Counted from the stretch's first letter, positions 17,345 through 37,374 are shown. The stretch: DNA of 64,000 nucleotides from a virus (IMGVR_UViG_3300015214_000024:265787-329786); one strand, 5' to 3'. A program made the numbers and translations. The notes: generated by a model from the letters alone, not told the origin.

Positions 17345-17445
17345 TTAAATTCTCCTAAATAATCATAAATTTGTGTAAAAGTGTAAAAAGCAAATTTACA
17401 TCATTTAGGGCGGGCTATAATTCTACATCATTTTGTAAACTCCTG
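17345..17445 (-). promoter_or_regulatory. minigene/anti-SD leader of the Pth2-like gene
   Basis: AGGAG-N9-ATG ATG TAG AAT TAT AGC CCG CCC TAA ATG ATG TAA; CCTAAATGAT pairs with ATTATTTAGG over the SD; TTGACA-N17-TATATT promoter at ~17464-17492. Confidence 0.65.
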
Positions 17446-17499
17446 TTTGTTTGTTACCTTACCAATATAGTATGCCAGGCATTAATTGTCAATCATATT

Positions 17500-17715
17500 T
17501 TATAATTTATTTACCTTTTTTCGCTGGTTATAATATGCGAAAAGGCCAACAGAGACAAATGTTATTCCATATAATAGAAAATACGGCCAAATTGCAATCA
17601 CTACCAAATCTTCTTTAATCGGCTTCCGGCGGAAAATGATTAAACCAATGGTAATTAATATCGCAGTAATAGCCATACCAATTAACCATATTGTTTTAAA
17701 CATTATTTCCTCCAC
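17500..17715 (-). CDS. small membrane protein
   Basis: Two hydrophobic segments. Confidence 0.5.
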   Translation of the reverse strand: MEEIMFKTIWLIGMAITAILITIGLIIFRRKPIKEDLVVIAIWPYFLLYGITFVSVGLFAYYNQRKKVNKL

Positions 17716-17757
17716 TATTTAGAAATAGGGCGACGTTGCCGCCGCCCTATGTTCTTA

Positions 17758-18336
17758 TTACTTTGCCGGAGTAAGCTGAATTGGACCAGCTTCGCGACCA
17801 GTTGTGCGAGCACCAGCAGCGCGATCAGTAACGATAACTTTGTAATCATCTGGACCGCCGTGGTAACCAACCTTAATTGTTGGATAACCAGCAATGCTCA
17901 TCATCCATCCCCCAGGGAGAGTGTCGAGAGCAGTAAGATATACGCGCTTAGAATCAATCAAGCGAGTCTGCGCAGCAGTAAAGTCATTTCGTCCAGCTTC
18001 GATAATTTGCTGGATCTGACGGTAAAGCTGCGGATCAACTTGACCTGGATAATTTTCTTGAATCCATTGGAAAGTAGCCTGGCTGCCATCTGGGCCATAT
18101 CGTCCTTCAAAGGCAGCCTTCATTACCTTTTCAAGTGCCTCGGTTTGCATATTTGGGACTTGTGCAGCCTCCTGAACCTTCTGACCATAATTAGACAGAA
18201 TATTATCAACATTGCTGGCCTGTGCAACAATGTCATTTTGCATTCGGTTAGCTGAGTTATTGGCGCTAAAATACATACCAACAAAAATAAGAATTGGTGC
18301 GCCAAGTGCCACCAACGCGATAATCAAACCTTTCAC
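17758..18336 (-). CDS. LemA-like membrane-anchored protein
   Basis: N-terminal TM, helical body, ENYP...LYRQIQQIIEAGRNDF. Confidence 0.65.
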   Translation of the reverse strand: MKGLIIALVALGAPILIFVGMYFSANNSANRMQNDIVAQASNVDNILSNYGQKVQEAAQVPNMQTEALEKVMKAAFEGRYGPDGSQATFQWIQENYPGQVDPQLYRQIQQIIEAGRNDFTAAQTRLIDSKRVYLTALDTLPGGWMMSIAGYPTIKVGYHGGPDDYKVIVTDRAAGARTTGREAGPIQLTPAK

Positions 18337-18402
18337 GTCACGTACTCCTTCTAAAGTTAATACCGATTAACTGACTAGTTATATACTGAATGATATGTAT
18401 TG

Positions 18403-19488
18403 TCAATATCGATAGCGATATGAACCATTGTTCTCAAGTTGGCGGATAATAATGATCATACCGCCAATATTAATAACGAGCATAAAAATAGCAATTATTA
18501 CACCAGCAACTGGTGTAATGGTCTGTACTTCATTACTAAGATATTCAAATTCTTTCATCGGCTTGCGTTCAAATTTTGAGTAGGAGATCGAAACTGATGT
18601 ATCAATTACTTTCTTCATATCAAAGGTCTTTAAATCGAGCAAAGCATCGCGAAGTGTTACTTGAAAAATATCAAATTTTGACCAAGCTTTGACTGATGCC
18701 CATTTAATTTCACCATTTTGTGCTACACCAAGGAATACTACAATATCATTCTTTTCAGCACCATTCCAGCTCGCATATACTGCGTCAGCATAAGTTGGAT
18801 TAAGATTCTTTGTGATAACAAAAATCATATTAGCTTGACGCTTTGGTCCCAACGTTTCAAGCTGCTCACTTAAATAATGTTCATATGAATCGATATTTGG
18901 GATTTTATAATCCGAAACGATTCGATCAATTTTATAATAATCATAAATTCGACCAGGATATTTTGGAAGTTTATCCTTATATTGGGTTAGGTCAATGTGA
19001 CTTACATTAAACAACGAACTACCAGCTGGCTTGATCCAATTAGTGTAGGTATGGGTTGTAGATACTGGATCCCCATTGCGCACGATTGACCAACGCTGCG
19101 GCTCATCTACGCCTTGACGGTCGACGCGGTCAATAGTAAATGTGCCAACGGTAGTATAAACGTCCCAATCATAATCGTGCGAATGCTCATAACAAGTATC
19201 GCATACGGTTGTGGTAGTTTGATTTTGTCCAGATCCAGTCGTAACTGTTCGGCAGTTGCACTGATATGAATGCGAACAGGATACTGTATTTTGTTCCTTA
19301 CCAGTCACCTGGCCGTTCAAAATTTCAGTGCTTGAAGTGCTGACATACATAGCTGCCTGGCAGGCTAAAAATACAGCCAATAAACTACCAATCCCCAATC
19401 CGCCAGATGCAAGTAGGGTTGGTGGCTTGAACCAAAAATGACAAGCAAGTGTAACAACTACACTTAGAATCAAAAATAAACCAGTCAA
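18403..19488 (-). CDS. membrane protein (TPM-like periplasmic domain, Cys-rich insert), partner of the LemA-like gene
   Basis: N- and C-terminal TMs, CSHSYQCNC...CDTC, W.G.EKNDIVV; GGAGG RBS before TTG. Confidence 0.6.
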   Translation of the reverse strand: MTGLFLILSVVVTLACHFWFKPPTLLASGGLGIGSLLAVFLACQAAMYVSTSSTEILNGQVTGKEQNTVSCSHSYQCNCRTVTTGSGQNQTTTTVCDTCYEHSHDYDWDVYTTVGTFTIDRVDRQGVDEPQRWSIVRNGDPVSTTHTYTNWIKPAGSSLFNVSHIDLTQYKDKLPKYPGRIYDYYKIDRIVSDYKIPNIDSYEHYLSEQLETLGPKRQANMIFVITKNLNPTYADAVYASWNGAEKNDIVVFLGVAQNGEIKWASVKAWSKFDIFQVTLRDALLDLKTFDMKKVIDTSVSISYSKFERKPMKEFEYLSNEVQTITPVAGVIIAIFMLVINIGGMIIIIRQLENNGSYRYRY

Positions 19489-19571
19489 ATCGACCTCCTG
19501 TTCGAACTTTCAACTGGTTTATATGAAACAGTAGTAAATGTCAATCAATAGATAAACTATTTGGGATCACA

Positions 19572-19603
19572 AAAATGCCAGGGATTGAGCCCTGGCATTT
19601 AAT
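19572..19603. terminator. intrinsic terminator hairpin
   Basis: AAAAATGCCAGGG-ATTGAG-CCCTGGCATTT. Confidence 0.7.
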
Positions 19604-19615
19604 TTCTAATGATAT

Positions 19616-19873
19616 TTAGATGTTTGCCCGCCAATGAGCCCCTGGCACAATCTTTTCCAAAGTAGTATTTTCTTTAGCCATAGTAGTTTCTAGAAAAATC
19701 TGTAACATAGTTACAACAAAATCCGATCCCAAGGATGAATATATGACTTTGTCCAAAACTTCCAAAATTTGCAAACTTGTTGGTTCGTCATCCCATACCA
19801 TAATTAACTCTCTCATTGATTGGTCAAGTTGACTATCTGGTGCGGAAAGGAGCATATCCTTAAATGGCGGCAT
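19616..19873 (-). CDS. hypothetical protein
   Basis: AAGGA RBS. Confidence 0.55.
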   Translation of the reverse strand: MPPFKDMLLSAPDSQLDQSMRELIMVWDDEPTSLQILEVLDKVIYSSLGSDFVVTMLQIFLETTMAKENTTLEKIVPGAHWRANI

Positions 19874-19886
19874 TCATAATATCCTT

Positions 19887-20384
19887 TTAGTTAAGTAAGT
19901 CTTCATTCCATTCACGATGACCTTCTCTGAAGGCCATATTTGCTTGAGTTTCTCGAACCTCGACTCTATAGCACCAAAGACGCTCAGCTTCGCCTTGACC
20001 CCAATAGTCTGGAATATAAACTCCGTTAACAAATTTATAAAGCATATCTGATAATCCTTCACAACCAAGCTTAGGAAGGATTGTTAATTGTGCCAATTTT
20101 CGAGCTTCCATTTCTTTATAAAACTCAAGTTCTGGATCATCTTCTGCCACAAGCAATGTGTGATCAAATTGATCTTCAAGAATCTTCTTTAAGTCTTTAA
20201 GGCCGCCGTAATCTGCTGCCCAATTTCGAACATCAAGATCATCAGTTCCAAAATAAAACTTCATAGAAAAACTGTAACCGTGAATCAGATTACAATGTGA
20301 ATCAGCCCGCCATTGGCGATAGGCACAAGGAAATGCATCAATATATTCTTTTGTACTAGTATATTTGTAAACTCTAGGTTCCAT
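19887..20384 (-). CDS. queD: 6-carboxy-tetrahydropterin synthase (QueD/PTPS family)
   Basis: C..IHGYS, D(Y)GGLK, FDHTLL, VEVRET..N.A. Confidence 0.85.
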   Translation of the reverse strand: MEPRVYKYTSTKEYIDAFPCAYRQWRADSHCNLIHGYSFSMKFYFGTDDLDVRNWAADYGGLKDLKKILEDQFDHTLLVAEDDPELEFYKEMEARKLAQLTILPKLGCEGLSDMLYKFVNGVYIPDYWGQGEAERLWCYRVEVRETQANMAFREGHREWNEDLLN

Positions 20385-20395
20385 TTTTATTATTT

Positions 20396-20443
20396 TCCTG
20401 CTTGAGCCAGAATATTTTAAGAGGGATGAGCAGGCGGCCTCTG
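20396..20443 (-). promoter_or_regulatory. preQ1-I-like riboswitch/pseudoknot candidate
   Basis: AGAGG-CCGCCTGCTCATC-CCTCT stem-loop, A-rich tail, loop CCTGCT complementary to AGCAGG overlapping the queD SD. Confidence 0.55.
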
Positions 20444-20455
20444 ATAGTAATTTAT

Positions 20456-20737
20456 TTAGTCAACCAACCGTGCTATTACTGAATCTGAATCGATCACCAT
20501 ATAGCTATCAGTAGGAGTTTTAAGTTCGTCGTGCTTGACCCATTTTGTTAATAAAACTCGATCACCGATGGACAATGGTGACAGATCTTCCTTAAAGCCA
20601 GTGCCAATATTTGTCACAATAGCTTCATATACGTCTTGATTTTGTTTTGTAGTAATAATTAAGCCACCAACAGATTTTTCTGGTGCTTTAATTTGTTTAA
20701 CAAGAAATCTTTTGCCTACTGGCGTAAAGTTAATCAT
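20456..20737 (-). CDS. groES: co-chaperonin GroES
   Basis: P.GKRFLVK...GGLII...IGDRVL...SVIA. Confidence 0.8.
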   Translation of the reverse strand: MINFTPVGKRFLVKQIKAPEKSVGGLIITTKQNQDVYEAIVTNIGTGFKEDLSPLSIGDRVLLTKWVKHDELKTPTDSYMVIDSDSVIARLVD

Positions 20738-20806
20738 TCTTCCTACCTATTATTGTTTTGTTTATCTTTTATCAATATAATAATAGGCAGGAAGAATGTC
20801 AATATT

Positions 20807-22066: not shown

Positions 22067-22077
22067 TTTAAACTCCC

Positions 22078-22554
22078 TTATTCGTAAATAATTTCCAAAA
22101 TAGTAAAATATTTGTCAGACTTTGGTGTGATTACTGTTACTGAATCACCAACCTTTCGATTTATCAATGATCTACCAACAGGACTCACAACACTGATCAA
22201 ACCGTTCTTTACATCAGACTCGTATTCACTCACTAATTGATAAGTCAATTCTTGTTCAGTGTCTTCATCAATCATTTTGACTTTAGCGCCAAACACAATT
22301 CTGTCAAGTCCAGCCAACGATTCCGGATCGACAATTTTTAAATCAGACAAAATACCTTCCAAGTTTTGAATTTTGCCTTCTATAAAAGCTTGCTGATTTT
22401 GCGCATCAGTAAATTCAGCATTTTCAAGCAATTCTTCACCACCATTAGTCCTGATGTGTTCAATTCTCGATATTATTTCCTGCCTATCGACAGACTTCAA
22501 TTTTTTCAACTCTGAAACTAATTTTTCATATCCATTTCTGGTTACTGTAATCAT
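22078..22554 (-). CDS. greA: transcription elongation factor GreA
   Basis: T..GY.KL..EL..LK, ENAEF, FGAKV, ISVVSPVGRSL. Confidence 0.9.
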   Translation of the reverse strand: MITVTRNGYEKLVSELKKLKSVDRQEIISRIEHIRTNGGEELLENAEFTDAQNQQAFIEGKIQNLEGILSDLKIVDPESLAGLDRIVFGAKVKMIDEDTEQELTYQLVSEYESDVKNGLISVVSPVGRSLINRKVGDSVTVITPKSDKYFTILEIIYE

Positions 22555-22570
22555 TTGCGACCTTTTATTC

Positions 22571-22601
22571 AAAAGATAGCCAGACACAAGTGCCTGGCTA
22601 C
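22571..22601 (-). terminator. terminator hairpin directly upstream of greA (leader attenuator candidate)
   Basis: GTAGCCAGGCAC-TT-GTGTCTGGCTATCTTTT, a few nt before the greA SD. Confidence 0.65.
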
Positions 22602-23795: not shown

Positions 23796-23803
23796 TTTAC
23801 TTC

Positions 23804-24343: not shown

Positions 24344-24364
24344 ACTTGATTATTCCGAAAAAAG

Positions 24365-26896: not shown

Positions 26897-27600
26897 AATT
26901 TAAATTTGCTCCAAGTGTTTTTATGTTCTAAACATCGATTTAATATAATCCTTAAGGATTCTGGATCATATACAAAACCAAAATGGGTAGTGTCAACCTC
27001 AATATTCTCACTTATGTCAGTTTCAGTCTCTAAGCAATCCTGATATGGTGCAATAATATCAGCTTTGGAATAGAGAGACGAGAATGGGACCACTGGAATT
27101 TCACCCATATAGTTAGTATATTGATCACAAATTGGATGATCATCGATATCAATACCAATTTTTGTATATTTCTTTCGCATTTCTTCAATGTCAATTTTTT
27201 GCTTGAACGGCGTGCCGAGGGTGATAACTGAATTGACTAGTTCTGGCGACATTTTAGCCAGGCAGCGAGCATAAAAGCCTCCCATACTCCATCCAATTAT
27301 AGTAACGGGGGTTTTATGCTCATCATAAATCCTTACTAATTCTTTATGAATAGTATTAATTAATGAATCACTTGCAATAATATTGGTTCCCTGATTCCAA
27401 GTATAGGGCTTGAATCCACAGGAAAGTAAAGCCGATCTTAGCAATAATGTGGCGTGATCATTAGTTAAAAAGCCAGGAATTACTAAAACTGGCCGGCCGT
27501 CAGCCTCTTCCTTGTATGAGAATGATTCTGCCGAGTCGAGCAAAAAATCAGCTATAAAATTAGGAGTCCTCTTTTTCAATAGATTAAAGAATTCGTCCAT
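26893..27600 (-). CDS. alpha/beta-hydrolase (lipase/esterase)
   Basis: PGFL oxyanion motif, GWSMGG nucleophile elbow, D and H triad. Confidence 0.85.
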   Translation of the reverse strand: MDEFFNLLKKRTPNFIADFLLDSAESFSYKEEADGRPVLVIPGFLTNDHATLLLRSALLSCGFKPYTWNQGTNIIASDSLINTIHKELVRIYDEHKTPVTIIGWSMGGFYARCLAKMSPELVNSVITLGTPFKQKIDIEEMRKKYTKIGIDIDDHPICDQYTNYMGEIPVVPFSSLYSKADIIAPYQDCLETETDISENIEVDTTHFGFVYDPESLRIILNRCLEHKNTWSKFKL

Positions 27601-29210
27601 TAAACTTGTATCCTTTCTTCAACCATCTGAATAAATTGGTCTAAACCAACCATTTCAGCAAATGTACCTACTCTGGGCCCTTGTTCTGAACCAAACACGA
27701 TTTCGTAGATGGCCTTGAACCATTCTTGAAGCTTCTCATAATTAGCTGACTTCCCAATTTCGTAAACAATACTTTGAATTGATTCAGCTGTTGGATTATC
27801 CAACGTCCTAAATTCATCGAGCATTGACGATAGTAGGCCATATTCATATTCAGTTGGTGACCGAAATGAAATCGATCCCGAAAGATGATCATTAAAATAA
27901 TTACCAGCTAACGGAATAATTGAACTGACTTGGTTATTGCCACAATATTGCTCAACAATCTTTCCTACTACTTCTGAATCCGTAATACCTGTTGATCCAA
28001 TCAAGTTCAGCAATAGGCTATAAGATACCTCATTATGTGAAGAATTTACATCGCCATTATGCACGTGGTAAACTGGATTACCAAGCTGTTGGCTGGCCGT
28101 CTGAGTCGCATATAGCTTTAAACTGTTATTATAATCATCCATAGCAATAGGAACAACACCAGCGTGAAGATTCTTCGCTCTAGTTGGCTCGCGATACAAA
28201 TAATATGCGAGACTTTCTTGAGTTCCATATTGAAGCCATTCTTCAATAGTGAAACCATTGCCCTTTGACTTTGAAATCTTTGCTCCATTCTTGTCAAGAA
28301 ATAGTTCATAAGTCAAATTAATTGGTGGGATGCCACCAAGAACTCGACAGATTTGTCCTGAAAGACGGACACTGTCAGTCAAATCCTTACCAGACATTTC
28401 ATAATCAACATCAAAATAGACCCAGCGCATTGCCCAGTCGACCTTCCACTGAAGCTTAGTACGGCCGTTGTGGATATCGACAACGCACGGAGTAGATCCG
28501 AGATTGAACTCCAAAAACCTCTTCCCATTTTCTGTTGAGAGAACAACCGGCACTTGGTTAACGTGTGGGGTCTTGTTTAAACTGACCGAATCGTGGAAAA
28601 CTGGCATAAACGGACTATATGTTTGGCGGCGGTCCTCTCCTAAGGTAGGAAGGATGATATCCAAAATAGCCTGATTGCTATCGAATACTCTGTCCAGCAT
28701 ATTGTTAAACTTGCCAAAACTATAATAATCTGAAGAGCTTACAAAACTCACTCGGCTCCGATTCGGCGAAGAGCCAACAACACTATTATTATAAGTAGCC
28801 AGGATGGCATCAACAAATTCTACCAATCGAGTGTTATTTGCATCAGCAAAGCTGCCGTCTTCTGTTCCATAAGGATTTGGGACCATCGATAGAGGCTCAC
28901 CCAAATGGTCATTCATCCATTCAGGCATTCCATCAGGCACCTTGCGGAAACCATCATAATCGTCACTAAACATAATAAGGCGAGTCTGGTAGGCATTCTG
29001 AGTTAGATCATCAAATGCCTTCATTACCCAAAGTGTACGAACTACTTCAGCAAATGTACCAATGTGGGGAGCGCCAGACGGGCCGTAACCTGATTCGAAG
29101 GTCACAACATCACCTGGCTTCTTGCCCTTACGCTCAATGTGCTTTAGAAGCCTCTTGGCCTCGACGAATGGCCAGGCCTTTGACTCTTCATACACTTGAA
29201 CCATATTCAT
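27600..29210 (-). CDS. lysS: class I lysyl-tRNA synthetase
   Basis: SGYGPSGAPHIGT, DDYDGFRKVP, KLQWKVDWAMRW, KISKSKGN, GPRVG. Confidence 0.95.
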   Translation of the reverse strand: MNMVQVYEESKAWPFVEAKRLLKHIERKGKKPGDVVTFESGYGPSGAPHIGTFAEVVRTLWVMKAFDDLTQNAYQTRLIMFSDDYDGFRKVPDGMPEWMNDHLGEPLSMVPNPYGTEDGSFADANNTRLVEFVDAILATYNNSVVGSSPNRSRVSFVSSSDYYSFGKFNNMLDRVFDSNQAILDIILPTLGEDRRQTYSPFMPVFHDSVSLNKTPHVNQVPVVLSTENGKRFLEFNLGSTPCVVDIHNGRTKLQWKVDWAMRWVYFDVDYEMSGKDLTDSVRLSGQICRVLGGIPPINLTYELFLDKNGAKISKSKGNGFTIEEWLQYGTQESLAYYLYREPTRAKNLHAGVVPIAMDDYNNSLKLYATQTASQQLGNPVYHVHNGDVNSSHNEVSYSLLLNLIGSTGITDSEVVGKIVEQYCGNNQVSSIIPLAGNYFNDHLSGSISFRSPTEYEYGLLSSMLDEFRTLDNPTAESIQSIVYEIGKSANYEKLQEWFKAIYEIVFGSEQGPRVGTFAEMVGLDQFIQMVEERIQV

Positions 29211-31743
29211 TTTCTACGTCCTCGCATCGTTGACACATATCTTTGTCGTTCACCTTAGCATAGTATGTCCTACAACGCAAGCACTTTTCACCATTATAAA
29301 CTTCAAAATGAACCGTTCGGGTTCCGACTTGCTCATTTTTATATTGAGCACAACCTAAAACTTCTTTCCAATCAACAGGGAGCGGAGATTTGAAACATAC
29401 TACCATCTGCTCCATCTGCCATTTTTGTTCGCTACGTTGATCTTCGAAAGCTTTCAATACTTCATCGCGTTCATTTTCGACGAATTCCCAGTACCCTAAA
29501 TTTTCACAGTCTAAATCATTCAAGCAATAGCTTGGATCAAATCCATATTGTGAAACTTCTGCCACCAAAAATGGTGTAGTTGGTTCCATTACATAAAGTA
29601 ACGTTCTGACTAGGCGATCCAACGTGTATAATACTGCCTGCCTGCGATTGCTTCCCTTTGAATCACAATACAAAGAATCTTTGACTTGAGTGAAATAAAA
29701 TTCACTGACCCAGCGCACATATGCCAATGCCTTTCTTACTGTCGGGAAAGTACCACCACATTGACTCTGTACCAATTCTTTAGCTTTATATAATACATAA
29801 CGGTCAACTGGAAGCAGTTCTGCACTTTGATTAACCACTTCGCCATTGAGGTTTGCTAAGCAGAACCTCACCGTGTTACGGACTTTGTCATAATTTGCCT
29901 GTGTTTGCTTGAGCTTTTCTTCATCAAACTCAACATCTGAATCAGCAAACCCGCTCAACAGCCACAGTCTCATAACATCGGCGCCATATTTTTCAAGAAG
30001 ATCTGGTAGCCCGCCACCATTACCAACACTCTTTGACATTTTCTGGCGGCGCTGGAGCACAAATCCGTGAGTGAACACGTTTTTAAAAGGTAATTTGCCA
30101 TAAAGAGCATAATGGACAAGTGCGCTGGACTGGAACCAACCCCGATGCTGATCAGTACCTTCTAAGTACATATCGGCCCGATCTACGTCAGGATATACAG
30201 CTTTTAAACTTGATCCAGAATCAAACCACACATCAAGAACATCCATCACTTTTTGGTATTGGCCGTGATATTTTTCAGGCAAGAAAAAGTCAGCGTCGTG
30301 TTCATACCAAACATCACTACTATGTTCTTTAAACATTTTTACAACATTAGTATTGACCTCAGGATCAACGAGCATTTCTCCAGTTTCATTGTGGAGAAAC
30401 AGGGCCATAGGCACACCCCAAAGACGTTGACGACTTAAACACCATTCAGATCGGTCGCCAAACATAAATTTGAATCGATTAGCATAGCCAGTAGAATTCC
30501 AATTGACTTCGTCAACTTCTTCGAGCAATTTATCCTTGAAAGAATCAAAATTGAAGAACCAATTTTTCTTGGTTTTCACAACTACTGGTTTTTTAGATCG
30601 CCAGGAGACTTGACGTTCCGACACTCGGTGCAACTCATAATAATAAACTAAATCTGGTCGACTTTCGAGGTATTCCTTTACGGCCTGATTTGCTTTATAG
30701 ACGTGGACTTTTACGCCATTGACTTCCATCATAGCGTCATCATCAACCAGCCCTTCAAGATTTAGGTTATACTTTACACCAAGCTTAAAATCGTCAAATC
30801 CGTGTCCAGGTACAACGTGTAAAAAGCCAGACCCAGCGTGTTCATTAACCGAATCATTTTCTTCCAACAGCGGTGACCTACCCCCAAAAGGAGGATTGAC
30901 AAATTTACCTTTTAGTTCATTTGGATCAAAATTTCTAACAAATTCCAAACCAAGCTCTTGGTTGAGCATAAAGCCAGCACTTTCATTCATCACAACATAC
31001 TTGCCAGATGGTGTTTTGCCCATTTTATAGGTTGCATCAGAATTATAAGCTACCGCTTTATTACCAGGCAATGTCCAAGGTGTAGTGGTCCACACTAAAA
31101 CGCTATAATTTTCACCTTCAACTGGAAATTCAACAAATAATGAATCGAGCGGTAAACTTACAGATTCAAGTTCAGCTTCAGCCAATGTAGTCTTTTCTAC
31201 TGGTGACCAATGAACCGGGCGGAATCGCTGTTCCAAAAGGCCACGCTCTTGAAGTCCATAAAGATTCTTCAAAGTTTCAGCTTCGTATTCATAGTCGTGA
31301 GTTTTATAGCATTTATCCCATTCGGCTCTTACACCAAATGATTTAAATTCTTCTTTTTGAACGTCTACCCACGAATCAGCATATGCTCGGCAATCCTTTC
31401 GGAACTGCACCACGTCAGCATCTTTACTCTTTCCAGCTTTAGTGTATTGTTCTTCAACTTTAACTTCGATCGGTAAGCCGTGACAATCCCATCCTGGACG
31501 GAACGATACGGTTTTTCCATTAAAGCGTTCTTGATGACGATTTACAGAATCTTTCAACACTTTGTTCAAAAAGTGTCCAAGGTGTAAATTACCATTTGCA
31601 TAAGGGGGGCCGTCGTGCAACAAAAAATCAAATCCATCAGATTGTGGATGAGTAGTTACTACTTTAGTGAATGTTGTGTCTGACCCAGCCTGCCGTTTAA
31701 GTGGGAAAGAAGTTGATGGTAGAAAAAGATTAAATTTAGACAT
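29188..31743 (-). CDS. ileS: isoleucyl-tRNA synthetase (IleRS1-like, C-terminal Zn finger)
   Basis: HDGPPYANG.LHLGH, WTTTPWTLP, WCLSRQRLWG, EGTDQHRGWF, KMSKS, CxxC..CxxC. Confidence 0.95.
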   Translation of the reverse strand: MSKFNLFLPSTSFPLKRQAGSDTTFTKVVTTHPQSDGFDFLLHDGPPYANGNLHLGHFLNKVLKDSVNRHQERFNGKTVSFRPGWDCHGLPIEVKVEEQYTKAGKSKDADVVQFRKDCRAYADSWVDVQKEEFKSFGVRAEWDKCYKTHDYEYEAETLKNLYGLQERGLLEQRFRPVHWSPVEKTTLAEAELESVSLPLDSLFVEFPVEGENYSVLVWTTTPWTLPGNKAVAYNSDATYKMGKTPSGKYVVMNESAGFMLNQELGLEFVRNFDPNELKGKFVNPPFGGRSPLLEENDSVNEHAGSGFLHVVPGHGFDDFKLGVKYNLNLEGLVDDDAMMEVNGVKVHVYKANQAVKEYLESRPDLVYYYELHRVSERQVSWRSKKPVVVKTKKNWFFNFDSFKDKLLEEVDEVNWNSTGYANRFKFMFGDRSEWCLSRQRLWGVPMALFLHNETGEMLVDPEVNTNVVKMFKEHSSDVWYEHDADFFLPEKYHGQYQKVMDVLDVWFDSGSSLKAVYPDVDRADMYLEGTDQHRGWFQSSALVHYALYGKLPFKNVFTHGFVLQRRQKMSKSVGNGGGLPDLLEKYGADVMRLWLLSGFADSDVEFDEEKLKQTQANYDKVRNTVRFCLANLNGEVVNQSAELLPVDRYVLYKAKELVQSQCGGTFPTVRKALAYVRWVSEFYFTQVKDSLYCDSKGSNRRQAVLYTLDRLVRTLLYVMEPTTPFLVAEVSQYGFDPSYCLNDLDCENLGYWEFVENERDEVLKAFEDQRSEQKWQMEQMVVCFKSPLPVDWKEVLGCAQYKNEQVGTRTVHFEVYNGEKCLRCRTYYAKVNDKDMCQRCEDVENEYGSSV

Positions 31744-31797
31744 TTTAAAAACTCCTATTGAATAAAAATCACAAATTAACTTGGACCAGATAACGTA

Positions 31798-31848
31798 TTA
31801 CCTGGCCTTTATAATTCGTATATTTTTAATCAAATTAAGAGTTTTCAT
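31798..31848 (-). promoter_or_regulatory. Ile-rich leader peptide MKTLNLIKNIRIIKAR (translational attenuator of ileS-lysS)
   Basis: Four Ile codons (ATT, ATA, ATT, ATA); leader nt AAAACTCTTA..TTGATTAAAAAT complementary to ATTTTTATTCAA-TAGGAGTTTT over the ileS SD. Confidence 0.75.
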
Positions 31849-32351: not shown

Positions 32352-32554
32352 TAGATTGCCTCCAAACAATGCTCAGTGATTGAAACAGCCTTCCAGCCAT
32401 CGCCATATCCATTGTTATATGGCGTATCCAGTTCTACGATGAACACTGTCATACCAGGAGCGTCAAATGCCACTCCGATTGTGGAACCTTTAATACCATC
32501 CATGTCACCGCCAGTACGAACAAGCTTAACACGCTGATTAGGTGAGAATTTCAT
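32351..32554 (-). CDS. small SH3/KOW-like hypothetical protein
   Basis: AAGGA RBS; F.PNQRVK...G..G. Confidence 0.5.
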   Translation of the reverse strand: MKFSPNQRVKLVRTGGDMDGIKGSTIGVAFDAPGMTVFIVELDTPYNNGYGDGWKAVSITEHCLEAI

Positions 32555-32577
32555 TTTCAGTCCTTTCGATTATGTTG

Positions 32578-32661
32578 CGGAGTAGTGGGGATTCGAACCC
32601 CATACCTTGCGGTACCCTCTGTTTTCGAGGCAGTGTTAGAACCTATCTAATTACGTACTCC
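32578..32661 (-). tRNA. tRNA-Ser(CGA), 8/4-type with bulged acceptor stem
   Basis: GGAGTA(C)GT/ACTACTCC-G, 5-bp D stem TTAGA/TCTAA, loop CT-CGA-AA, long V arm, 4-bp T stem GGGG/CCCC; CCA not encoded. Confidence 0.7.
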
Positions 32662-32892
32662 AAAATTGTCAACCAGTTTTACTAATTCTTTTTCAGCCAA
32701 ATACATTTCAACTTTAGTATTGTAAAACCTTAATATTTCTTTATTAAAATTATCAATTCCATATTTTTCAATAGCATATCTTATTCTTTTACCAGAACCC
32801 ATATAACCATCATCGAGATTTTTAGTCGAATGGGCACCAATGTAAAACTTACCATTTATTTGGTTTGTTATTTTATAAACATAGTAAAACAT
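32647..32892 (-). pseudogene. truncated Seg-like GIY-YIG homing endonuclease
   Basis: YYVYKITN..NGKFYIG.H...DDGYMGSG; only 81 aa, runs into the tRNA. Confidence 0.7.
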
Positions 32893-32930
32893 ATTTTCAA
32901 ATCCGGCGCGCTTGTCCGGTCAATCTTCCA

Positions 32931-33122
32931 TTAGTGTGAATATCTACATTCACTTATGCTATCACATTCAAATCCTGGAGCACCACAAATTGAACAGTCA
33001 AGCTTGGTTTGTCTAAACCATTCCTTTTTGCCGTTATGTGGATTGATTTCACAATAAAGTTCATTAATCCTGCCTGGTGACTTGAATGATCCAAACAACC
33101 AACTTAGCACTTTACCAAACAT
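32931..33122 (-). CDS. small Cys-containing hypothetical protein
   Basis: AAGGAG RBS, own promoter. Confidence 0.45.
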   Translation of the reverse strand: MFGKVLSWLFGSFKSPGRINELYCEINPHNGKKEWFRQTKLDCSICGAPGFECDSISECRYSH

Positions 33123-33171
33123 AGCATCTCCTTTCCTTTCTGTCTATAAAGGAAGAAATGAAATATGTCAA

Positions 33172-33263
33172 TGGCGGACAGTGAGGGATTTGAACCCTCG
33201 GAACCCCTTACGAGGTTCGGCACATTAGCAGTGTGCTGGTTTTAGCCACTCACCCAACTGTCC
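33172..33263 (-). tRNA. tRNA-Ser(GCT), canonical 7/5
   Basis: GGACAGT/ACTGTCC-G-CCA; GCACA-CTGCTAA-TGTGC; long V arm. Confidence 0.95.
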
Positions 33264-33271
33264 ATAAAATT

Positions 33272-33361
33272 TGGAGGAAGACGGGATAATCGAAATCCAC
33301 ACCATATTTCAGGTGCCCACTCCTTAGCAGGGAGGTCCAGAACCTTTCTGGTTCATCTTCC
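33272..33361 (-). tRNA. tRNA-Ser(GCT), 8/4-type, U73
   Basis: 8-bp GGAAGATG/CGTCTTCC, T-CCA, D stem CCAGA/TCTGG, CTCC-CTGCTAA-GGAG, 4-bp T stem GGAT/ATCC. Confidence 0.85.
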
Positions 33362-33368
33362 ATATATA

Positions 33369-33484
33369 CAACAAAGACAGGATTCGAACCTACGTGGTCC
33401 CAGGGCGTCAAATTAATTTGTCCGGATCCTAAGACCATCCCGCTTCTGGGCGGGCTACCTTAAACCTATCTCAGCCACTTCATT
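33369..33484 (-). ncRNA. tRNA-Ser-like RNA with 6-nt anticodon loop and hyper-extended variable arm
   Basis: AATGAAG/CTTTGTT-G, Ser-type D loop, CCCGC-CCAGAA-GCGGG, 10-bp TGGTCTTAGG/CCTGGGACCA V stem, GGTTCGAATCC. Confidence 0.6.
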
Positions 33485-33488
33485 GTAT

Positions 33489-33579
33489 TGGAGGAGCCGT
33501 GGGTACTCGAAACCCATACCGTTTTTTAGGTATCAACCGCTTTCCAGGCGGTGGTTGCGCCCTGGCAACTAACGACTCC
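33489..33579 (-). tRNA. tRNA-Ser(GGA), 8/4-type, U73
   Basis: GGAGTCGT/ACGGCTCC-T-CCA, D stem GTTGC/GCAAC, ACCGC-CTGGAAA-GCGGT, T stem GGGT/ACCC. Confidence 0.85.
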
Positions 33580-33585
33580 GCAAAT

Positions 33586-34257
33586 TTAAACTACTGTTCT
33601 TCCTTTATACCATCCTATTGGAATTACCATATCCTTTTTAATTTTCTGGTTTTTAGATCCGTCAGTAATCCACATAGTTCCGAATTGTGAATTTTTCCTT
33701 CCAGTTTGGAAGCCATCATTTTTTTCTTTCCATTTTTTAATAGCACTATCAGATTTAGATAATTTACTAAATTCTTTAGCTTTTTCTGGATTCAAGCTAT
33801 GGAATTCTTTCATAGCTTCAGAACCTTTAACCCATCCTTTACATTCCACAAACCGCAATCTTGCTTTTTCAAGTATCCATTCATAACCTGGTTTACCAAA
33901 TGGTGAAATAAATTTATTCCATTCTGCCTTAGTTTCAAATCCTCGATCTTTGTAATAAGAGCCTTCTAAGTTGTATATTGTAAAGCCACCAGTTCCGCCA
34001 AGCATTAAATTATAAGTATTGTTATCTTTTACAAAATCTTCGTTAACTATTTCACGTTCTTTATTATTCATATCATTTTCATTATCAAAAATATATAATG
34101 TTTCTTTATCAAAGTTTTTTATTCCATATTTTTCTATAGCAGATTTTATTAATTTTCCTGAACCCATATAGCCATCATCTAAATCATCAGTAATATGCTT
34201 GCCAATATAGATCTTACCATTTAGTTTGTTTGTTATTTTGTAAATTATATTAAACAT
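33586..34257 (-). mobile_element. Seg-like GIY-YIG homing endonuclease inside the tRNA array
   Basis: IIYKITNKLNGKIYIGKH...DDGYMGSG...YNL..GG; true start ATG 34257 (the upstream in-frame part is tRNA). Confidence 0.85.
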
Positions 34258-34277
34258 AAAAATCCATTCAATTTTTG

Positions 34278-34364
34278 AGGACAGTGTGGGATTCGAACCC
34301 ACGGGACCCTCGCAGGTCCTCCGGTTTTCAAGACCAGTGCAATCGGCCACTCTGCCAACTGTCC
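34278..34364 (-). tRNA. tRNA-Ser(TGA), canonical 7/5, U73
   Basis: GGACAGT/ACTGTCC-T; CTGGT-CTTGAAA-ACCGG; long V arm. Confidence 0.92.
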
Positions 34365-34372
34365 ATATATTT

Positions 34373-34461
34373 TGGCGGAGGGTAGGCGGAATCGAACCCC
34401 TGACCTTACGGTTCCACTAGTTTTCAAAACTAGGTGTGCATCCCCGGCACAATTACTCTCC
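34373..34461 (-). tRNA. tRNA-Ser(TGA), 8/4-like
   Basis: GGAGAGTA/TACCCTCC-G-CCA (one mismatch), D stem TGTGC/GCACA, CTAGT-TTTGAAA-ACTAG, bulged T stem. Confidence 0.8.
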
Positions 34462-34464
34462 AAT

Positions 34465-34490
34465 AAAAAACCCCCTAGTTTCCTAGGGGG
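34465..34490 (-). terminator. attenuator terminator immediately 5' of the tRNA-Ser array
   Basis: CCCCCTAG-GAAA-CTAGGGGG-TTTTTT ending 3 nt before the first tRNA. Confidence 0.9.
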
Positions 34491-34524
34491 TGTAACAGCA
34501 AACCTATCATTCAATAGATACTGT

Positions 34525-34572
34525 TCACCCCATTGGGATGGACGAACTACTGGATGATGAAATAATGAACAT
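34525..34572 (-). promoter_or_regulatory. serine leader peptide MFIISSSSSSSIPMG (transcription attenuator)
   Basis: AGGA RBS; TCA TCA TCC AGT AGT TCG TCC; alternative 1:2, 2:3 and 3:4 helices; TTGACA promoter at 34631-34636. Confidence 0.9.
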
Positions 34573-34665
34573 TCGTTTAATCTTTCCTGTTTGCTTTAAC
34601 TTTGTTCAGCTTATATTCTATTTAGTATTCTGTCAATAGTAAAATAATAAAAATTCTGATTTATT

Positions 34666-35304
34666 TTATGACCAATATTCATATAAACCAGACTGCATAG
34701 TATCCAGATATTCATCCCGGACACCGAAAAACTTAGCCAAATATCTTACCAACAAAGGTGTTGGAGGGGCGAATCGATCGATCAAATCCTCTTTGGAAAA
34801 ATCAATTATATCACCATTTTCCATTGTGATTGATTGCTTAACGTCACGAAACAGCCTAATTGCTTCTGATTTAACCTTTTGTCCATTTGGTATGTATGTC
34901 ATTTTACCGTGCTCATATGGATAAATCCCATATGGAATATATTTGAATGACGGTTCCATACCATAATCATTATTCAAAACTGAATTATAGTAATCCATTG
35001 AATCATTATATCGGTGCCAATCAGGCATACCAATATGGGTAAAAAGCATTATATTAGATAAGCCAGTTTCAGTTTGGTAACTCACAAACTGACTCATATA
35101 TGCTGATAAATTTTGTTTGTGCCCATCGCGCCAATAAAGTCTCATTTCAATATCTGAATCATCTTCAATCAGACGCAGAAAGGTATTAAAGTCAGAAATT
35201 TGGGTTTCAAGAGCATATTCGTACTGGTCCCAATCAACTCTCGGGTCGCGATCCACGATATTATGAAAACCGTAACCTAATACTTTATGAATCTTAAAGC
35301 CCAC
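34666..35304 (-). CDS. hypothetical protein
   Basis: GGGGGA RBS before GTG; 212 aa. Confidence 0.6.
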   Translation of the reverse strand: MGFKIHKVLGYGFHNIVDRDPRVDWDQYEYALETQISDFNTFLRLIEDDSDIEMRLYWRDGHKQNLSAYMSQFVSYQTETGLSNIMLFTHIGMPDWHRYNDSMDYYNSVLNNDYGMEPSFKYIPYGIYPYEHGKMTYIPNGQKVKSEAIRLFRDVKQSITMENGDIIDFSKEDLIDRFAPPTPLLVRYLAKFFGVRDEYLDTMQSGLYEYWS

Positions 35305-35353
35305 AAACTTCCCCCATTTTCTTATCCTCTAATAGCAGCTTTGTATTTTAATG

Positions 35354-36598
35354 TCAAAGGATAATTCGATCTGGAAAATATGGTTGAAGTATTTCAGGTA
35401 TTGCCACCCAGCCATCTGGCTGTTGATAATTTTCCAAAATAGCTACAAGAGTCCGACCAACAGCCAATCCGCTACCATTTAATGTATGGACCAAAGTAGT
35501 CTTTTTATCTCCTGGCAGCTTTACTCGTGCGGCCATACGTCGGGCCTGAAAATCGCCACAATTGCTGATCGAGCTAATTTCACGCCAAGCCTTTTGGCCC
35601 GGAAGCCAAACTTCCAAATCGTAAGTTTTTCTGGCGCCAAATCCCATATCACCCGCTGCTAATAAAACTCGCCTAAATGGTAAATCAAGTTTCTTAAGAA
35701 TCATTTCCGCAGCATTCAGCATATGCTGATGTTCATATCCGCTTTGGTCTGGAGTAGAAATGGTTACCATTTCTACTTTATGGAATTGATGTTGGCGTAT
35801 GAGCCCGTGAGTGTCTCTACCAGCACTGCCTGCTTCGGCCCTAAAGCACGGTGTTAGTCCAACCATACGCAATGGTAAATCACCATAATCCAAAATTTGA
35901 TTGGCAACCAAATTTGTCATTGGCACTTCGCCAGTTGGGATCAAATATCGACCATCTACGGTTTTAAACAAGTCCTCTTCAAATTTTGGAAGCTGACCGG
36001 TACCAAACATCGTTTGCTGATTCACCAAATAAGGAACATCTACTTCAGTAAAACCATATTCCTCAACGTGATGGTCAATCATAAACTGACCAATCACTCG
36101 GTGCAATTTAGCCAATGTGCCAGTCATCACATTAAAGCGAGTCCCTGCGATTTTTGTTGCTTGTTCAAAGTTAAATCCTGGAAGAAGGTGATGCTCTTTG
36201 ATTTCAAAATCAAATTCAGGAATGTCATCCTGATGTACTACAAGATTATTTTCCTCACCACCTTCTGGAACATCGTAGTGTGGAATATTTGGTACCTTAG
36301 CCCAAATGCTATCACGAACATCTTTCAACAAATCAACATTTTTCTTATAATGATCAATTTGCTCATTAGTTGCTTTTGCTTGTTCTTTCAGATCTTCAGC
36401 AGGTAATTTAAGCCTGTATGCATCACCAATTGCTTTATTAAGGTTGTTTCGTTCATTTTCAGCAGCTTGCAACTTTGTTGTATAAAGACGAAATTGCTCA
36501 TCAGCCCAAAACAAATCGTCAATTGCTCCTCCGCCGCGCCCCTTTAATGCACGTTTTACGGCTTCGCGATCAGTTCTGACATCATCAATATTAATCAT
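35354..36598 (-). CDS. serS: seryl-tRNA synthetase
   Basis: N-terminal coiled coil, GTGQLPKFEEDLF, LIPTGEVP, FRAEAGSAGRDT.GLIRQHQF.KVE, EISS.SNC.DFQARR, TLNGSGLAVGR. Confidence 0.97.
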   Translation of the reverse strand: MINIDDVRTDREAVKRALKGRGGGAIDDLFWADEQFRLYTTKLQAAENERNNLNKAIGDAYRLKLPAEDLKEQAKATNEQIDHYKKNVDLLKDVRDSIWAKVPNIPHYDVPEGGEENNLVVHQDDIPEFDFEIKEHHLLPGFNFEQATKIAGTRFNVMTGTLAKLHRVIGQFMIDHHVEEYGFTEVDVPYLVNQQTMFGTGQLPKFEEDLFKTVDGRYLIPTGEVPMTNLVANQILDYGDLPLRMVGLTPCFRAEAGSAGRDTHGLIRQHQFHKVEMVTISTPDQSGYEHQHMLNAAEMILKKLDLPFRRVLLAAGDMGFGARKTYDLEVWLPGQKAWREISSISNCGDFQARRMAARVKLPGDKKTTLVHTLNGSGLAVGRTLVAILENYQQPDGWVAIPEILQPYFPDRIIL

Positions 36599-37244
36599 TC
36601 CAAAAATCCTTCATTCCACCGTTCATATACGACTTGGCTGTAATAATTTTTCCCGTTCTTTCATCCCAAGCCTGATTATCCTGAAAACGAATTGTGCGAA
36701 TTTTATCACCACGCTGGCCAGAGCCACTTTCCTTATACTGTTCAGTCTTTAGACTAGAAAGAACAGCATTATCCATTGATTGTAACTTATTTGCTAGGGC
36801 CTGTCGAGCCTCTTGGTAATTAGATTCTCTAGAACGGCTTTGGCGTACTTCCACCAAACCTGTTGGAATATGGATCAATCTGCAGGAACATTGGTGCTTA
36901 TTTCGGTGTTGGCCGCCTTTACCTGTCCCAGAAAACCATTCTACCCGTAAATCGCTATCGCGTATTTCAGTTTTTTCCATTTTGGCGTCAATTAAAGCGA
37001 CCTTTACTGACGAAGTATGGACTCTGCCCCTGCGCTCAGTTGGAGGTACACGCTGGAAACGATGGCCGCCAACTTCTTTCTTAAGATTGTCGTTTGGTTT
37101 TTTTAGCTCAATAAAATAGCCTTGACCCTCTGGGCCGTGGCGGTGCAGTCAGCCATCAAGAGCTTTGAGGTATGAGTGATACAAATCTTTCGCTAATAAT
37201 TGAGCGTCTTTTCCGCCTTCACCAGGCATAATAACTAATTTCAT
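36591..37244 (-). CDS. RF1-like class I peptide chain release factor (lacks domain 1) with in-frame UGA at codon 32
   Basis: AAGGA RBS and ATG 37244; PGEGG.DA.L, then TGA (37149-37151), then E.GGHRFQRVPPTERRGRVHTS (PxT motif), GKGGQH.NK, R.DKIRT; 218 codons in one frame. Confidence 0.85.
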
Positions 37245-37319
37245 ATTTTTATTCCTTTTTAAAACAATAGAGTATTATCGTGTGAAATGTTAAATCACAA
37301 CGTCAATTTTCTTTAAGTT

Positions 37320-37340
37320 CTAAAAAAGAGTAAAACACAT
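37320..37340 (-). promoter_or_regulatory. UAG-terminated leader MCFTLF* occluding the release-factor SD
   Basis: AAGGA RBS; TTTTACTCTTTTTTAGAAC pairs with GTTTTAAAAAGGAATAAAA (RF SD); next in-frame stop TAA at 37290. Confidence 0.7.
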
Positions 37341-37374
37341 TAATCAGTCCTTTTTGATTTCTACCAATATTTAG

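What the first reader, a model, noticed from the sequence alone, without database searches (positions are those of the whole stretch)
17345..37345. Candidate new system: ribosome-sensing leader ORFs, each gating the phage's backup copy of the translation component it senses
Four tiny leader ORFs, none in the ORF track, sit directly upstream of translation genes, and their content matches the downstream function. Seven Ser codons precede the tRNA-Ser array (34525-34572). Four Ile codons precede ileS-lysS (31798-31848). A UAG stop precedes an RF1-type factor plus serS (37320-37340). An ATG-ATG-TAG minigene precedes peptidyl-tRNA hydrolase (17405-17431). Each overlaps a helix that either competes with a terminator or pairs with the downstream SD. 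These elements are seen in the sequence. Established: stalling-controlled attenuation is known for bacterial amino-acid and pheST operons, and host toxins or defences cleave or modify tRNAs and inactivate synthetases (PrrC, PARIS AriB, HipA-family kinases, GNAT tRNA acetylases). Inference: the phage monitors which part of translation has failed and induces only the matching replacement, an inducible counter-defence. I do not know of this being described as a phage regulon.
Basis: partly seen in the sequence, partly recalled or inferred. Interest (0 to 1): 0.95.

Follow-up and report, generated by a model that had tools for sequence, protein, structure and literature searches.

The report
Ribosome-sensing leaders gate phage translation genes
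A giant phage places tiny translated "test" genes and RNA switches in front of its own tRNA, synthetase, release-factor and tRNA-hydrolase-like genes, so it probably makes these spare translation parts only when ribosomes stall on the matching codons or read through stop codons; I found no published account of this control for tRNA genes or for phages.

Summary
All four leaders exist, but they do not share one logic.

(1) The seven-Ser leader is a complete transcription attenuator for six tRNA-Ser genes and is conserved in three relatives. Three more codon-matched attenuators head this genome's other tRNA blocks. Similar units occur in several distant phages, including cultured Ralstonia phage RsoM2USA. 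The leader-to-cluster match beat all 20,000 permutations.

(2) The ileS-lysS leader lies in the genome's strongest start-site-hiding hairpin. It is kept in one sequenced relative, probably in a second, and absent in two.

(3) The release-factor leader's UAG frame is kept in 3 of 4 relatives. The gene itself carries an in-frame UGA, not mentioned in the finding, that is kept in all 73 distinct phage homologs.

(4) The "Pth minigene" is misread: the conserved unit is M-x-UAG-N-Y-x-P-P-stop, an amber-readthrough sensor, not a sensor of Pth shortage.

"Senses the part it replaces" therefore holds for the tRNAs, probably for IleRS, partly for the release factor, and not for Pth2. serS and gltX have no cognate leader. 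Translation and induction are untested, and counter-defence is inference. This scan noted tRNA attenuators, UGA-gated release factors and amber-gated Pth2 genes before on other genomes.

The parts
34608..34636 (-). sigma70-like promoter (TTGACA-17-TAAGCT) of the Ser attenuator
   Evidence: read from the sequence; TTGAC plus an A-rich spacer motif recurs before the other three attenuators; consensus scan finds promoter-like sites only at chance level, so weak on its own
34525..34572 (-). Ser leader peptide, 15 aa, seven consecutive Ser codons
   Evidence: conserved with synonymous Ser codon swaps in L002, L003, L006
34487..34531 (-). antiterminator: the strand across the leader stop codon pairs with the 5' terminator arm
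   Evidence: forms with a ribosome on Ser codons, lost at the stop; capture 8.7 vs 2.5 kcal/mol shuffled, 0.2 at the stop
34464..34491 (-). intrinsic terminator (9-bp stem plus U-tract) just before the first tRNA-Ser
   Evidence: stem sequence differs but hairpin and U-tract are kept in three relatives
32577..34461 (-). array of six tRNA-Ser genes (UGA x2, GGA, GCU x2, CGA) with interspersed ORFs
31798..31848 (-). Ile/Lys-rich leader (16 aa) whose start overlaps the stop codon of an Arc-like gene
   Evidence: homolog with four Ile in L002; no indel inside the ORF in two further runs
31741..31847 (-). long hairpin pairing leader codons 1-5 with the ileS SD and start region
   Evidence: z=-10.2, rank 1 of 226; 2 compensatory and 4 one-sided changes, none broken, versus L002
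29188..31743 (-). isoleucyl-tRNA synthetase gene
   Evidence: TIGR00392 E=3e-180, just under the cut-off
27600..29210 (-). class I lysyl-tRNA synthetase gene overlapping the ileS end
   Evidence: PF01921, PRK00750
37320..37340 (-). RF leader, ATG frame: 6 codons then UAG on the anti-SD arm
   Evidence: same 6-codon UAG frame in L003 and L006, TAG kept in L010, lost in L002
37303..37338 (-). RF leader, GTG frame: 11 codons then UGA-C
   Evidence: an ORF ending in UGA-C in this hairpin is present in all four relatives and is the only leader in L002
37236..37345 (-). hairpin hiding the SD and start of the release-factor gene
   Evidence: z=-4.3; 8 of 27 consensus pairs with compensatory change among three sequences, many also broken in one sequence
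36591..37244 (-). RF1-type release factor lacking domain 1 (217 codons) with in-frame UGA at codon 32 (37151-37149)
   Evidence: UGA in 73 of 73 distinct IMG/VR homologs whose 147 other Trp codons are TGG
35354..36598 (-). seryl-tRNA synthetase gene overlapping the RF stop; no leader of its own
   Evidence: TIGR00414 over cut-off; no start hairpin
17405..17431 (-). amber-readthrough leader M-x-UAG-N-Y-x-P-P-UAA with AGGAG SD
   Evidence: conserved in L011, L014, L100, L099 with synonymous changes after the amber
17352..17409 (-). 19-bp hairpin starting on the last Pro codon and hiding the SD of the PTH2-fold gene
   Evidence: 5 compensatory pairs of 19, all from L099; opened only by a ribosome past the amber
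16672..17343 (-). PTH2-fold protein with a 120-aa helical N-terminal extension
   Evidence: PF01981 E=1.5e-5; Foldseek to archaeal Pth2 and human Bit1

Best explanation
The phage (455 kb, probably of an alphaproteobacterium) uses translating ribosomes as sensors. It has three kinds of switch. (A) Transcription attenuators. Its tRNA genes are sorted into blocks by amino acid (Ser; His/Tyr/Glu; Leu/Asn/Pro; twelve others). Each block sits behind a leader written in those amino acids. Slow decoding parks the ribosome on the cognate codons, the antiterminator forms, and the block (with leuS or a hisS-like gene where embedded) is transcribed. Normal decoding takes the ribosome to the stop, breaks the antiterminator and terminates transcription. 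The tRNAs made would relieve the stall, giving negative feedback. (B) Translational attenuators. A ribosome dwelling on the early Ile/Lys codons, or on the UAG of the RF leader, holds open the hairpin over the ileS or RF start. (C) Readthrough gates. Full-length RF needs readthrough of an internal UGA (probably as Trp). The PTH2-fold gene needs amber readthrough into Pro-Pro-stop, which places the ribosome on the anti-SD arm; the phage's own CUA tRNAs or low RF1 are the likely triggers. Shown here: sequence, conservation, codon match and folding geometry. Inferred: translation, stalling, regulation in vivo, and the stress being sensed (amino-acid or charged-tRNA shortage, tRNA-destroying defences, or release-factor loss).
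For: Four of four leaders in the genome match only their own tRNA block (diagonal P 1e-5 to 3e-5, off-diagonal 0.18 or more), with the stop 54-57 nt before the U-tract in all four. Homologs are kept in L002, L003, L006 (Ser) and L133 (His/Tyr/Glu). An SD-free scan found such units in LR745206.1 (7), G001, G003, G004 and several IMG/VR loci. Over 30 uncurated units the excess of cognate codons was 171.5 against 10.7 +/- 15.6 in 20,000 permutations, none reaching it. Antiterminator capture with the ribosome on the median cognate codon was 7.7 kcal/mol against 2.8 shuffled and 0.75 at the stop (34 of 37 units above shuffle); other terminators of the genome did not show it. Cultured RsoM2USA has such a unit (33 of 36 cognate codons, P=1.4e-4). 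RBS-opening energies. UGA kept in 73 of 73 RF homologs in genomes that use UGA as a normal stop (237 of 692 long ORFs). Amber at codon 3 of the PTH2-fold gene in XacN1, RAS14 and RsoM2USA, each with a CUA tRNA; this genome has two CUA tRNAs.
Against: No expression data. Folding models are equilibrium estimates that depend on the assumed footprint, and a first, cruder switch test did not separate real from shuffled sequence. The Ile leader is absent in L003 and L006, and Ile12, Ile13 and Lys14 lie outside the modelled ON window. The UAG of the RF leader is lost in L002 and may partly be a by-product of pairing with the SD region. Units from related phages are not fully independent. Three of four cultured tRNA-rich phages tested (XacN1, RAS14, Phosso) showed no attenuator in the tRNA regions scanned. 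Hydrolase activity of the PTH2-fold protein is unproven.
Confidence: 0.78

Rival explanations
1. One reading: every leader senses failure of exactly the component downstream, and the set is an inducible counter-defence against host tRNA nucleases and synthetase-inactivating toxins.
For: The cognate rule holds for tRNA blocks. Phage tRNAs are shown to rescue infection from retron-Eco7 and PrrC (PMC11555353). Any lesion that slows decoding of a codon would trigger such an attenuator (established knowledge of trp/his attenuation).
Against: The Pth leader responds to amber readthrough, not to a stall on the minigene. serS and gltX lack cognate leaders. The RF needs UGA readthrough though it is RF1-type. 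Nothing here separates defence from plain nutrient limitation.
Confidence: 0.3
2. Nutrient and homeostasis model: the attenuators only tune phage tRNA and synthetase supply to demand in slow-growing or starved hosts and avoid the cost of constitutive expression; defence is incidental.
For: The design is that of amino-acid starvation attenuators. Blocks are sorted by amino acid, not by single isoacceptor, and several phages use one omnibus leader for all tRNAs (L017, L043, L063, L077, L087).
Against: More tRNA does not cure lack of an amino acid, but does cure loss of the tRNA (inference). Stop-codon gates on RF and PTH2 are not explained by nutrients.
Confidence: 0.4
3. Only the tRNA attenuators are regulatory; the three hairpins over ileS, RF and PTH2 starts merely dampen or translationally couple expression, and their small ORFs are incidental.
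For: The Ile leader overlaps the upstream stop codon and is missing in two relatives, where an ordinary gene runs through a similar hairpin. Four Ile in 15 codons is common. RF leader frames differ among relatives.
Against: The PTH2 leader keeps SD, amber, Asn-Tyr-x-Pro-Pro and stop with synonymous changes down to 51% protein identity while flanks diverge. The internal UGA of RF is invariant. L002 keeps four Ile despite a one-codon deletion and other changes.
Confidence: 0.2
4. The RF UGA and the PTH2 amber reflect a phage genetic-code switch (code 4 or 15) or pseudogenes.
For: Two CUA tRNAs and rare TAG stops (21 of 353) in this genome.
Against: UGA ends 117 of 353 long ORFs here. Homologs use TGG for all other Trp codons of the same gene. 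One fixed stop at one position across 73 genes of about 42-53% identity to the query is not decay.
Confidence: 0.05

Closest known systems
Ribosome-mediated transcription attenuators of Proteobacteria (trpL, hisL, pheL, leuL; multivalent thrL and ilvL; pheM of pheST)
   Same: Short leader rich in cognate codons, antiterminator that spans the leader's end, intrinsic terminator, and the same stall-versus-stop logic. Family description from my own knowledge.
   Different: They control tRNA genes (sorted into blocks by amino acid) in a phage, not biosynthetic or synthetase operons of a cell; up to 12 amino acids per leader; no Rfam leader family matches.
T-box riboswitches (synthetase operons and some tRNA genes in Firmicutes; own knowledge)
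   Same: Terminator/antiterminator control by the supply of charged tRNA.
   Different: Sensing here is by a translated leader, not by direct binding of uncharged tRNA; no T-box match.
Translational attenuation by leader peptides (ermCL-ermC, cat86; SecM/MifM-type unmasking; own knowledge)
   Same: A stalled ribosome frees a hidden ribosome-binding site.
   Different: The proposed inducers are Ile/Lys shortage, slow UAG termination or amber readthrough into Pro-Pro-stop, not an antibiotic or a secretion defect.
prfB (RF2) autoregulation by +1 frameshift at CUU UGA C
   Same: A release-factor gene with an early UGA that lets through full-length product only when termination at UGA is poor.
   Different: In-frame readthrough at a Trp position, not a frameshift; the factor is RF1-type (PxT motif) and lacks domain 1, so feedback on UGA is not evident; an upstream UAG/UGA leader adds a second gate.
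Lambda bar minigenes and Pth
   Same: SD-led two-codon ORF next to a peptidyl-tRNA-hydrolase-related function.
   Different: The conserved element extends six codons past the amber; the protein is PTH2-fold, not bacterial Pth1 (no PF01195 match in the genome); a stall on the minigene does not open the hairpin.
Phage tRNAs as counter-defence (T5/SP15 tRNA-Tyr against retron-Eco7, tRNA-Lys against PrrC; PMC11555353)
   Same: Phage supplies replacement tRNAs.
   Different: That work attributes rescue to a strong promoter and does not mention attenuation; here supply appears demand-gated. Al-Shayeb et al. (PMC7162821) list the parts in huge phages but mention no leader or attenuator.

Membership tests
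Leader-peptide transcription attenuator (trp/his/thr/ilv type) - Ser unit | SD-led short ORF enriched in cognate codons | tested here: met
   7 of 14 Ser, P=2.5e-5; kept in three relatives
Leader-peptide transcription attenuator (trp/his/thr/ilv type) - Ser unit | intrinsic terminator before the controlled genes | tested here: met
   9-bp stem plus U-tract just before the first tRNA
Leader-peptide transcription attenuator (trp/his/thr/ilv type) - Ser unit | mutually exclusive antiterminator that forms with a ribosome on sensor codons and not at the stop | tested here: met
   computational only: 8.7 vs 2.5 (shuffled) vs 0.2 kcal/mol; a cruder metric was not discriminating
Leader-peptide transcription attenuator (trp/his/thr/ilv type) - Ser unit | controls an amino-acid biosynthetic or synthetase operon / belongs to a described leader family | tested here: not met
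   controls tRNA genes; no Rfam leader match
Leader-peptide transcription attenuator (trp/his/thr/ilv type) - Ser unit | leader translated in vivo and readthrough induced by cognate starvation | not testable with these tools
   needs reporter, Ribo-seq or Term-seq data
Translational attenuator (ermC type) - ileS, RF and PTH2 units | hairpin that hides the downstream SD, with covariation | tested here: met
   few sequences each
Translational attenuator (ermC type) - ileS, RF and PTH2 units | stall site positioned so that the ribosome frees the SD | tested here: inconclusive
   met for RF UAG, PTH2 Pro-Pro-stop and ileS codons 2-9; not for Ile12/Ile13/Lys14, the PTH2 amber, or the UGA of L002/L003/L006
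Translational attenuator (ermC type) - ileS, RF and PTH2 units | inducer-dependent stalling shown | not testable with these tools
   needs toeprinting or reporters
Release factor 1 (PrfA) | PxT recognition loop and GGQ motif | tested here: met
   PPT and GGQ present; best models prfA; best structures RF1 and mtRF1a
Release factor 1 (PrfA) | full length with domain 1; curated score cut-off | tested here: not met
   matches profile positions 110-337 only; 126-134 bits against cut-offs of 400-423
PrfH | closer to the prfH model than to prfA | tested here: not met
   55 bits (cut-off 167) against 134 for prfA
prfB-type autoregulation | +1 frameshift at CUU UGA C | tested here: not met
   frame continues in phase after Gly-UGA
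prfB-type autoregulation | the encoded factor terminates at the gating codon | not testable with these tools
   motifs predict UAA/UAG; needs a release assay
Pth2 peptidyl-tRNA hydrolase | PTH2 fold | tested here: met
   PF01981 above cut-off; Foldseek E=4e-5 to archaeal Pth2
Pth2 peptidyl-tRNA hydrolase | catalytic Lys/Asp/Thr set (from my own knowledge of archaeal Pth2) | tested here: inconclusive
   Asp, Gly and Thr align and are conserved; the Lys region has a two-residue gap and no invariant Lys
Lambda bar-type minigene sensor of Pth | function resides in the two-codon ORF alone | tested here: not met
   codon 2 varies (Met/Arg) while amber and Asn-Tyr-x-Pro-Pro-stop are kept; the second Met-Met-stop is not conserved

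The most novel reading that the evidence does not exclude
Many large phages run a demand-driven repair regulon for translation. Ribosome sensors detect which tRNA set, synthetase or termination step has been knocked out by host defences and induce only the needed spare part, including a minimal release factor that can stand in when termination fails at UAG or UGA.
Probability: 0.3. Interest if true: 0.95.

Novelty: new variant of a known kind. Interest (0 to 1): 0.85.

Why it matters
Why large phages carry dozens of tRNAs and synthetases is a long-standing question. The leaders give a readable statement of when these genes are needed: each leader's codons name the shortage that turns its block on. 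That makes starvation versus tRNA-destroying defence directly testable with short reporter constructs, and in a cultured phage (RsoM2USA, MG752970.1, leader starting at 87361 on the minus strand). It would extend attenuation from bacterial amino-acid operons to tRNA genes and viruses. It also shows that genes annotated as broken (RF with an internal UGA, PTH2-fold genes with an early amber) are probably gated, not dead. The leaders could serve as compact natural sensors of codon-specific translation stress.

Tried and rejected
Single-protein scans of IMG/VR with RF, IleRS and the PTH2 protein found no close relatives; relatives came from Logan/ENA contigs. A metagenome scan with a neighbouring gene gave only distant, uninformative loci. 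My first scan for leaders required an SD and a terminator within 70 nt and wrongly suggested that other phages lack them; the SD-free scan corrected this. A switch test by pairing probability at a fixed ribosome position did not beat shuffles and was replaced by an energy test at the median cognate codon. I first took the UGA frame as the only true RF leader; L003, L006 and the footprint model showed that the UAG frame is also kept, so both are reported. Short ORFs upstream of distant RF homologs end in UAG in 21 of 69 loci (UAA 31, UGA 14): not decisive. The ATP-grasp relative L132 was not syntenic; the representative search gave no close relative. No RNA holder listed. Laying DNA contigs showed no indel inside the Ile leader ORF but did not list its substitutions. 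No attenuator found in the scanned tRNA regions of XacN1, RAS14 or Sinorhizobium phage Phosso. Nine literature searches on the system found no description; the library lacks most subscription papers. Genetic-code switch and pseudogene readings were rejected.

Full report
Source. The window lies at 265787-329786 of a 455,147-bp IMG/VR virus record with 39% G+C and at least 69 tRNA genes. A permuted alphaproteobacterial tmRNA and a class I LysRS point to an alphaproteobacterial host (inference). The code is standard: long ORFs end in TAA 215, TGA 117 and TAG 21 times. Two tRNAs have a CUA anticodon.

Observation. All four leaders are present at the stated places on the minus strand, and the downstream genes are as named. 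They fall into different classes and differ in strength of support.

Ser unit. A 15-codon ORF with seven consecutive Ser codons (P=2.5e-5; the only such run among 305 SD-led short ORFs) ends 54 nt before the U-tract of a 9-bp terminator that lies just before six tRNA-Ser genes. The codons cover all four Ser anticodon classes in the array. The strand that spans the stop codon can pair with the 5' arm of the terminator. With a ribosome on the Ser codons this antiterminator forms before the 3' arm is made; with the ribosome at the stop it cannot. Three relatives whose RF proteins are 63-74% identical keep seven Ser with different codons, the same antiterminator strand and a terminator of different sequence.

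The rule is genome-wide. Following earlier notes I checked the other tRNA blocks. Leaders at genome positions 180103, 191195 and 209727 precede the His/Tyr/Glu, Leu/Asn/Pro and twelve-amino-acid blocks. Each of the four leaders matches only its own block (P 1e-5 to 3e-5 on the diagonal, 0.18 or more off it), and the stop-to-U-tract distance is 54-57 nt in all. leuS and a hisS-like gene lie inside the Leu and His blocks. The His leader is conserved in L133.

It is also widespread. A scan without an SD requirement found units in LR745206.1 (seven), in IMG/VR genomes G001, G003 and G004, and omnibus leaders before mixed clusters in L017, L043, L063, L077 and L087. Over 30 uncurated units with blocks of at most eight amino acids, cognate codons exceeded expectation by 171.5, against 10.7 +/- 15.6 in 20,000 permutations (maximum 83.6). 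Some units come from related phages, so they are not fully independent. With the ribosome on the median cognate codon, upstream RNA captured the terminator arm by 7.7 kcal/mol on average, against 2.8 after shuffling and 0.75 at the stop; 34 of 37 units beat their shuffles, and ordinary terminators of the genome did not. A cruder test had failed. One of four cultured tRNA-rich phages, RsoM2USA, has a complete unit: 33 of 36 cognate codons, stop 51 nt before the U-tract, capture 10-12 kcal/mol on sensor codons and under 2 near the stop.

ileS-lysS unit. The leader start overlaps the stop of an Arc-like gene. Its first codons pair with the ileS SD in the strongest start hairpin of 226 genes (z=-10.2). 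Opening the ileS start costs 16.9 kcal/mol with no ribosome, 4-5 with one on codons 2-9, 9-12 on codons 10-16 and 14 at the stop. Ile7, Lys8 and marginally Ile10 are thus in the ON window; Ile12, Ile13 and Lys14 are not, unless a queued ribosome covers the anti-SD. L002 keeps the hairpin with compensatory changes and four Ile codons, three in the ON window; it lacks lysS after ileS and has no Lys among the sensor codons. That is one suggestive case. L003 and L006 have a hairpin but no such leader. Four Ile alone is weak evidence. I rate this unit probable (about 0.6).

Release-factor unit. The protein is RF1-type (PxT, GGQ), lacks domain 1 and is not PrfH. The finding omits that codon 32 is UGA. 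It replaces a Trp found in uninterrupted homologs and is present in all close relatives and in 73 of 73 distinct IMG/VR homologs, whose other Trp codons are TGG and whose neighbours use UGA as a stop. The leader has two frames: ATG to UAG (6 codons) and GTG to UGA-C (11 codons). The UAG frame is kept in L003 and L006 and the TAG in L010, but L002 has only a UGA leader, through a compensatory change in the helix. A ribosome at the UAG opens the start (15.9 to about 4 kcal/mol here; 9 to 3 in L003 and L006); one at the UGA does so partly here and poorly in relatives. The best reading is a two-step gate on poor termination: slow UAG release allows initiation, and UGA readthrough allows completion or simply caps the level. 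Whether the factor reads UGA is open. serS is coupled to the RF stop and lies upstream of the Ser sensor, so it is not Ser-gated.

PTH2 unit. Across relatives of 84, 68, 64 and 51% protein identity, the conserved element is SD, Met, Met or Arg, UAG, Asn, Tyr, Ser or Asn, Pro, Pro, UAA, with synonymous changes in four codons after the amber; the second Met-Met-stop is not conserved. The hairpin starts on the last Pro codon and covaries. A ribosome on the amber leaves it closed in the window and three relatives; one at Pro-Pro-stop opens it (from 7-11 to 2-4 kcal/mol). In cultured XacN1, RAS14 and RsoM2USA the PTH2-fold gene itself begins Met-x-UAG, and each phage has a CUA tRNA. So the input is amber readthrough, by the phage's suppressor tRNA or low RF1, and not Pth shortage. 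That Pro-Pro-stop slows termination is from my own knowledge. The fold is Pth2, but the catalytic Lys is not clearly kept.

Comparison and novelty. The mechanisms are known (trp/thr/ilv-type attenuation, ermC-type unmasking, prfB-type stop-codon gating). The targets and the setting are not described in the papers I could search. This scan has noted tRNA attenuators in at least 60 genomes, and UGA-gated release factors and amber-gated Pth2 genes in others; those notes are not independent evidence. What this window adds is the set of switches side by side in one genome, an Ile/Lys translational switch on a synthetase pair, and a cultured test case.

Verdict. Observation confirmed; interpretation partly supported. 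Confidence by unit: tRNA attenuators about 0.9, amber-readthrough gate 0.8, RF UGA gate 0.85 and its UAG leader 0.55, ileS switch 0.6, counter-defence as the main purpose 0.3-0.4. New variant of a known kind; interest 0.85.

Noticed in passing
window:37149-37151 (-): In-frame UGA at a conserved Trp position of the release-factor gene; the LR745206.1 homolog (L156) has two in-frame stops.
   Followed up: yes
G000:C1:180103, 191195, 209727 (+) (L110, L111): Three more codon-matched attenuators before the His/Tyr/Glu, Leu/Asn/Pro and twelve-amino-acid tRNA blocks.
   Followed up: yes
L169 (MG752970.1:87361-87170, -): Cultured Ralstonia phage RsoM2USA has a complete 37-codon leader attenuator before a tRNA block.
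   Followed up: yes
L158:950-976, L160:975-1054, L159:1480-1820: PTH2-fold genes of cultured XacN1, RAS14 and RsoM2USA start Met-x-UAG; annotated from a later start or not annotated. In XacN1 and RAS14 the PTH2 domain is fused to a homolog of the gene that follows it in the window (16062-16586).
   Followed up: partly
G000:C1:15281-15358 and 165512-165586 (L112, L113); 183179-183254: Two tRNAs with CUA anticodon and one with an 8-base loop containing UUA; charging identity unknown.
   Followed up: partly
   Followed up: no
window:48736-49017 (-): Permuted (two-piece) alphaproteobacterial-type tmRNA.
   Followed up: no
G000:C1:191364-191460 (L110:15365-15460): tRNA-like element right after the Leu/Asn/Pro terminator that ARAGORN does not call.
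   Followed up: no
L111:1112-2377 and L110:10690-11172: Short 421-aa LeuRS (no gap-free match to the long bacterial enzymes) and a short HisRS-like ORF inside their cognate tRNA blocks; thrS and infC lie just upstream of the His block.
   Followed up: partly
L003:18024-18200 and L006:7872-8050: Where the Ile leader is absent, a strong hairpin inside the upstream gene still pairs with the region just before the ileS start.
   Followed up: no
window:47779 (-) and genome 119187, 388272 (-): Other genes with strong start-hiding hairpins (z -4 to -5.5) in the genome-wide scan; leaders not examined.
   Followed up: no
L154:2372 (G002): Ile/Cys/Leu/Val-rich leader with attenuator geometry whose following tRNAs (Lys, Leu, Tyr, Arg) match poorly.
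   Followed up: no
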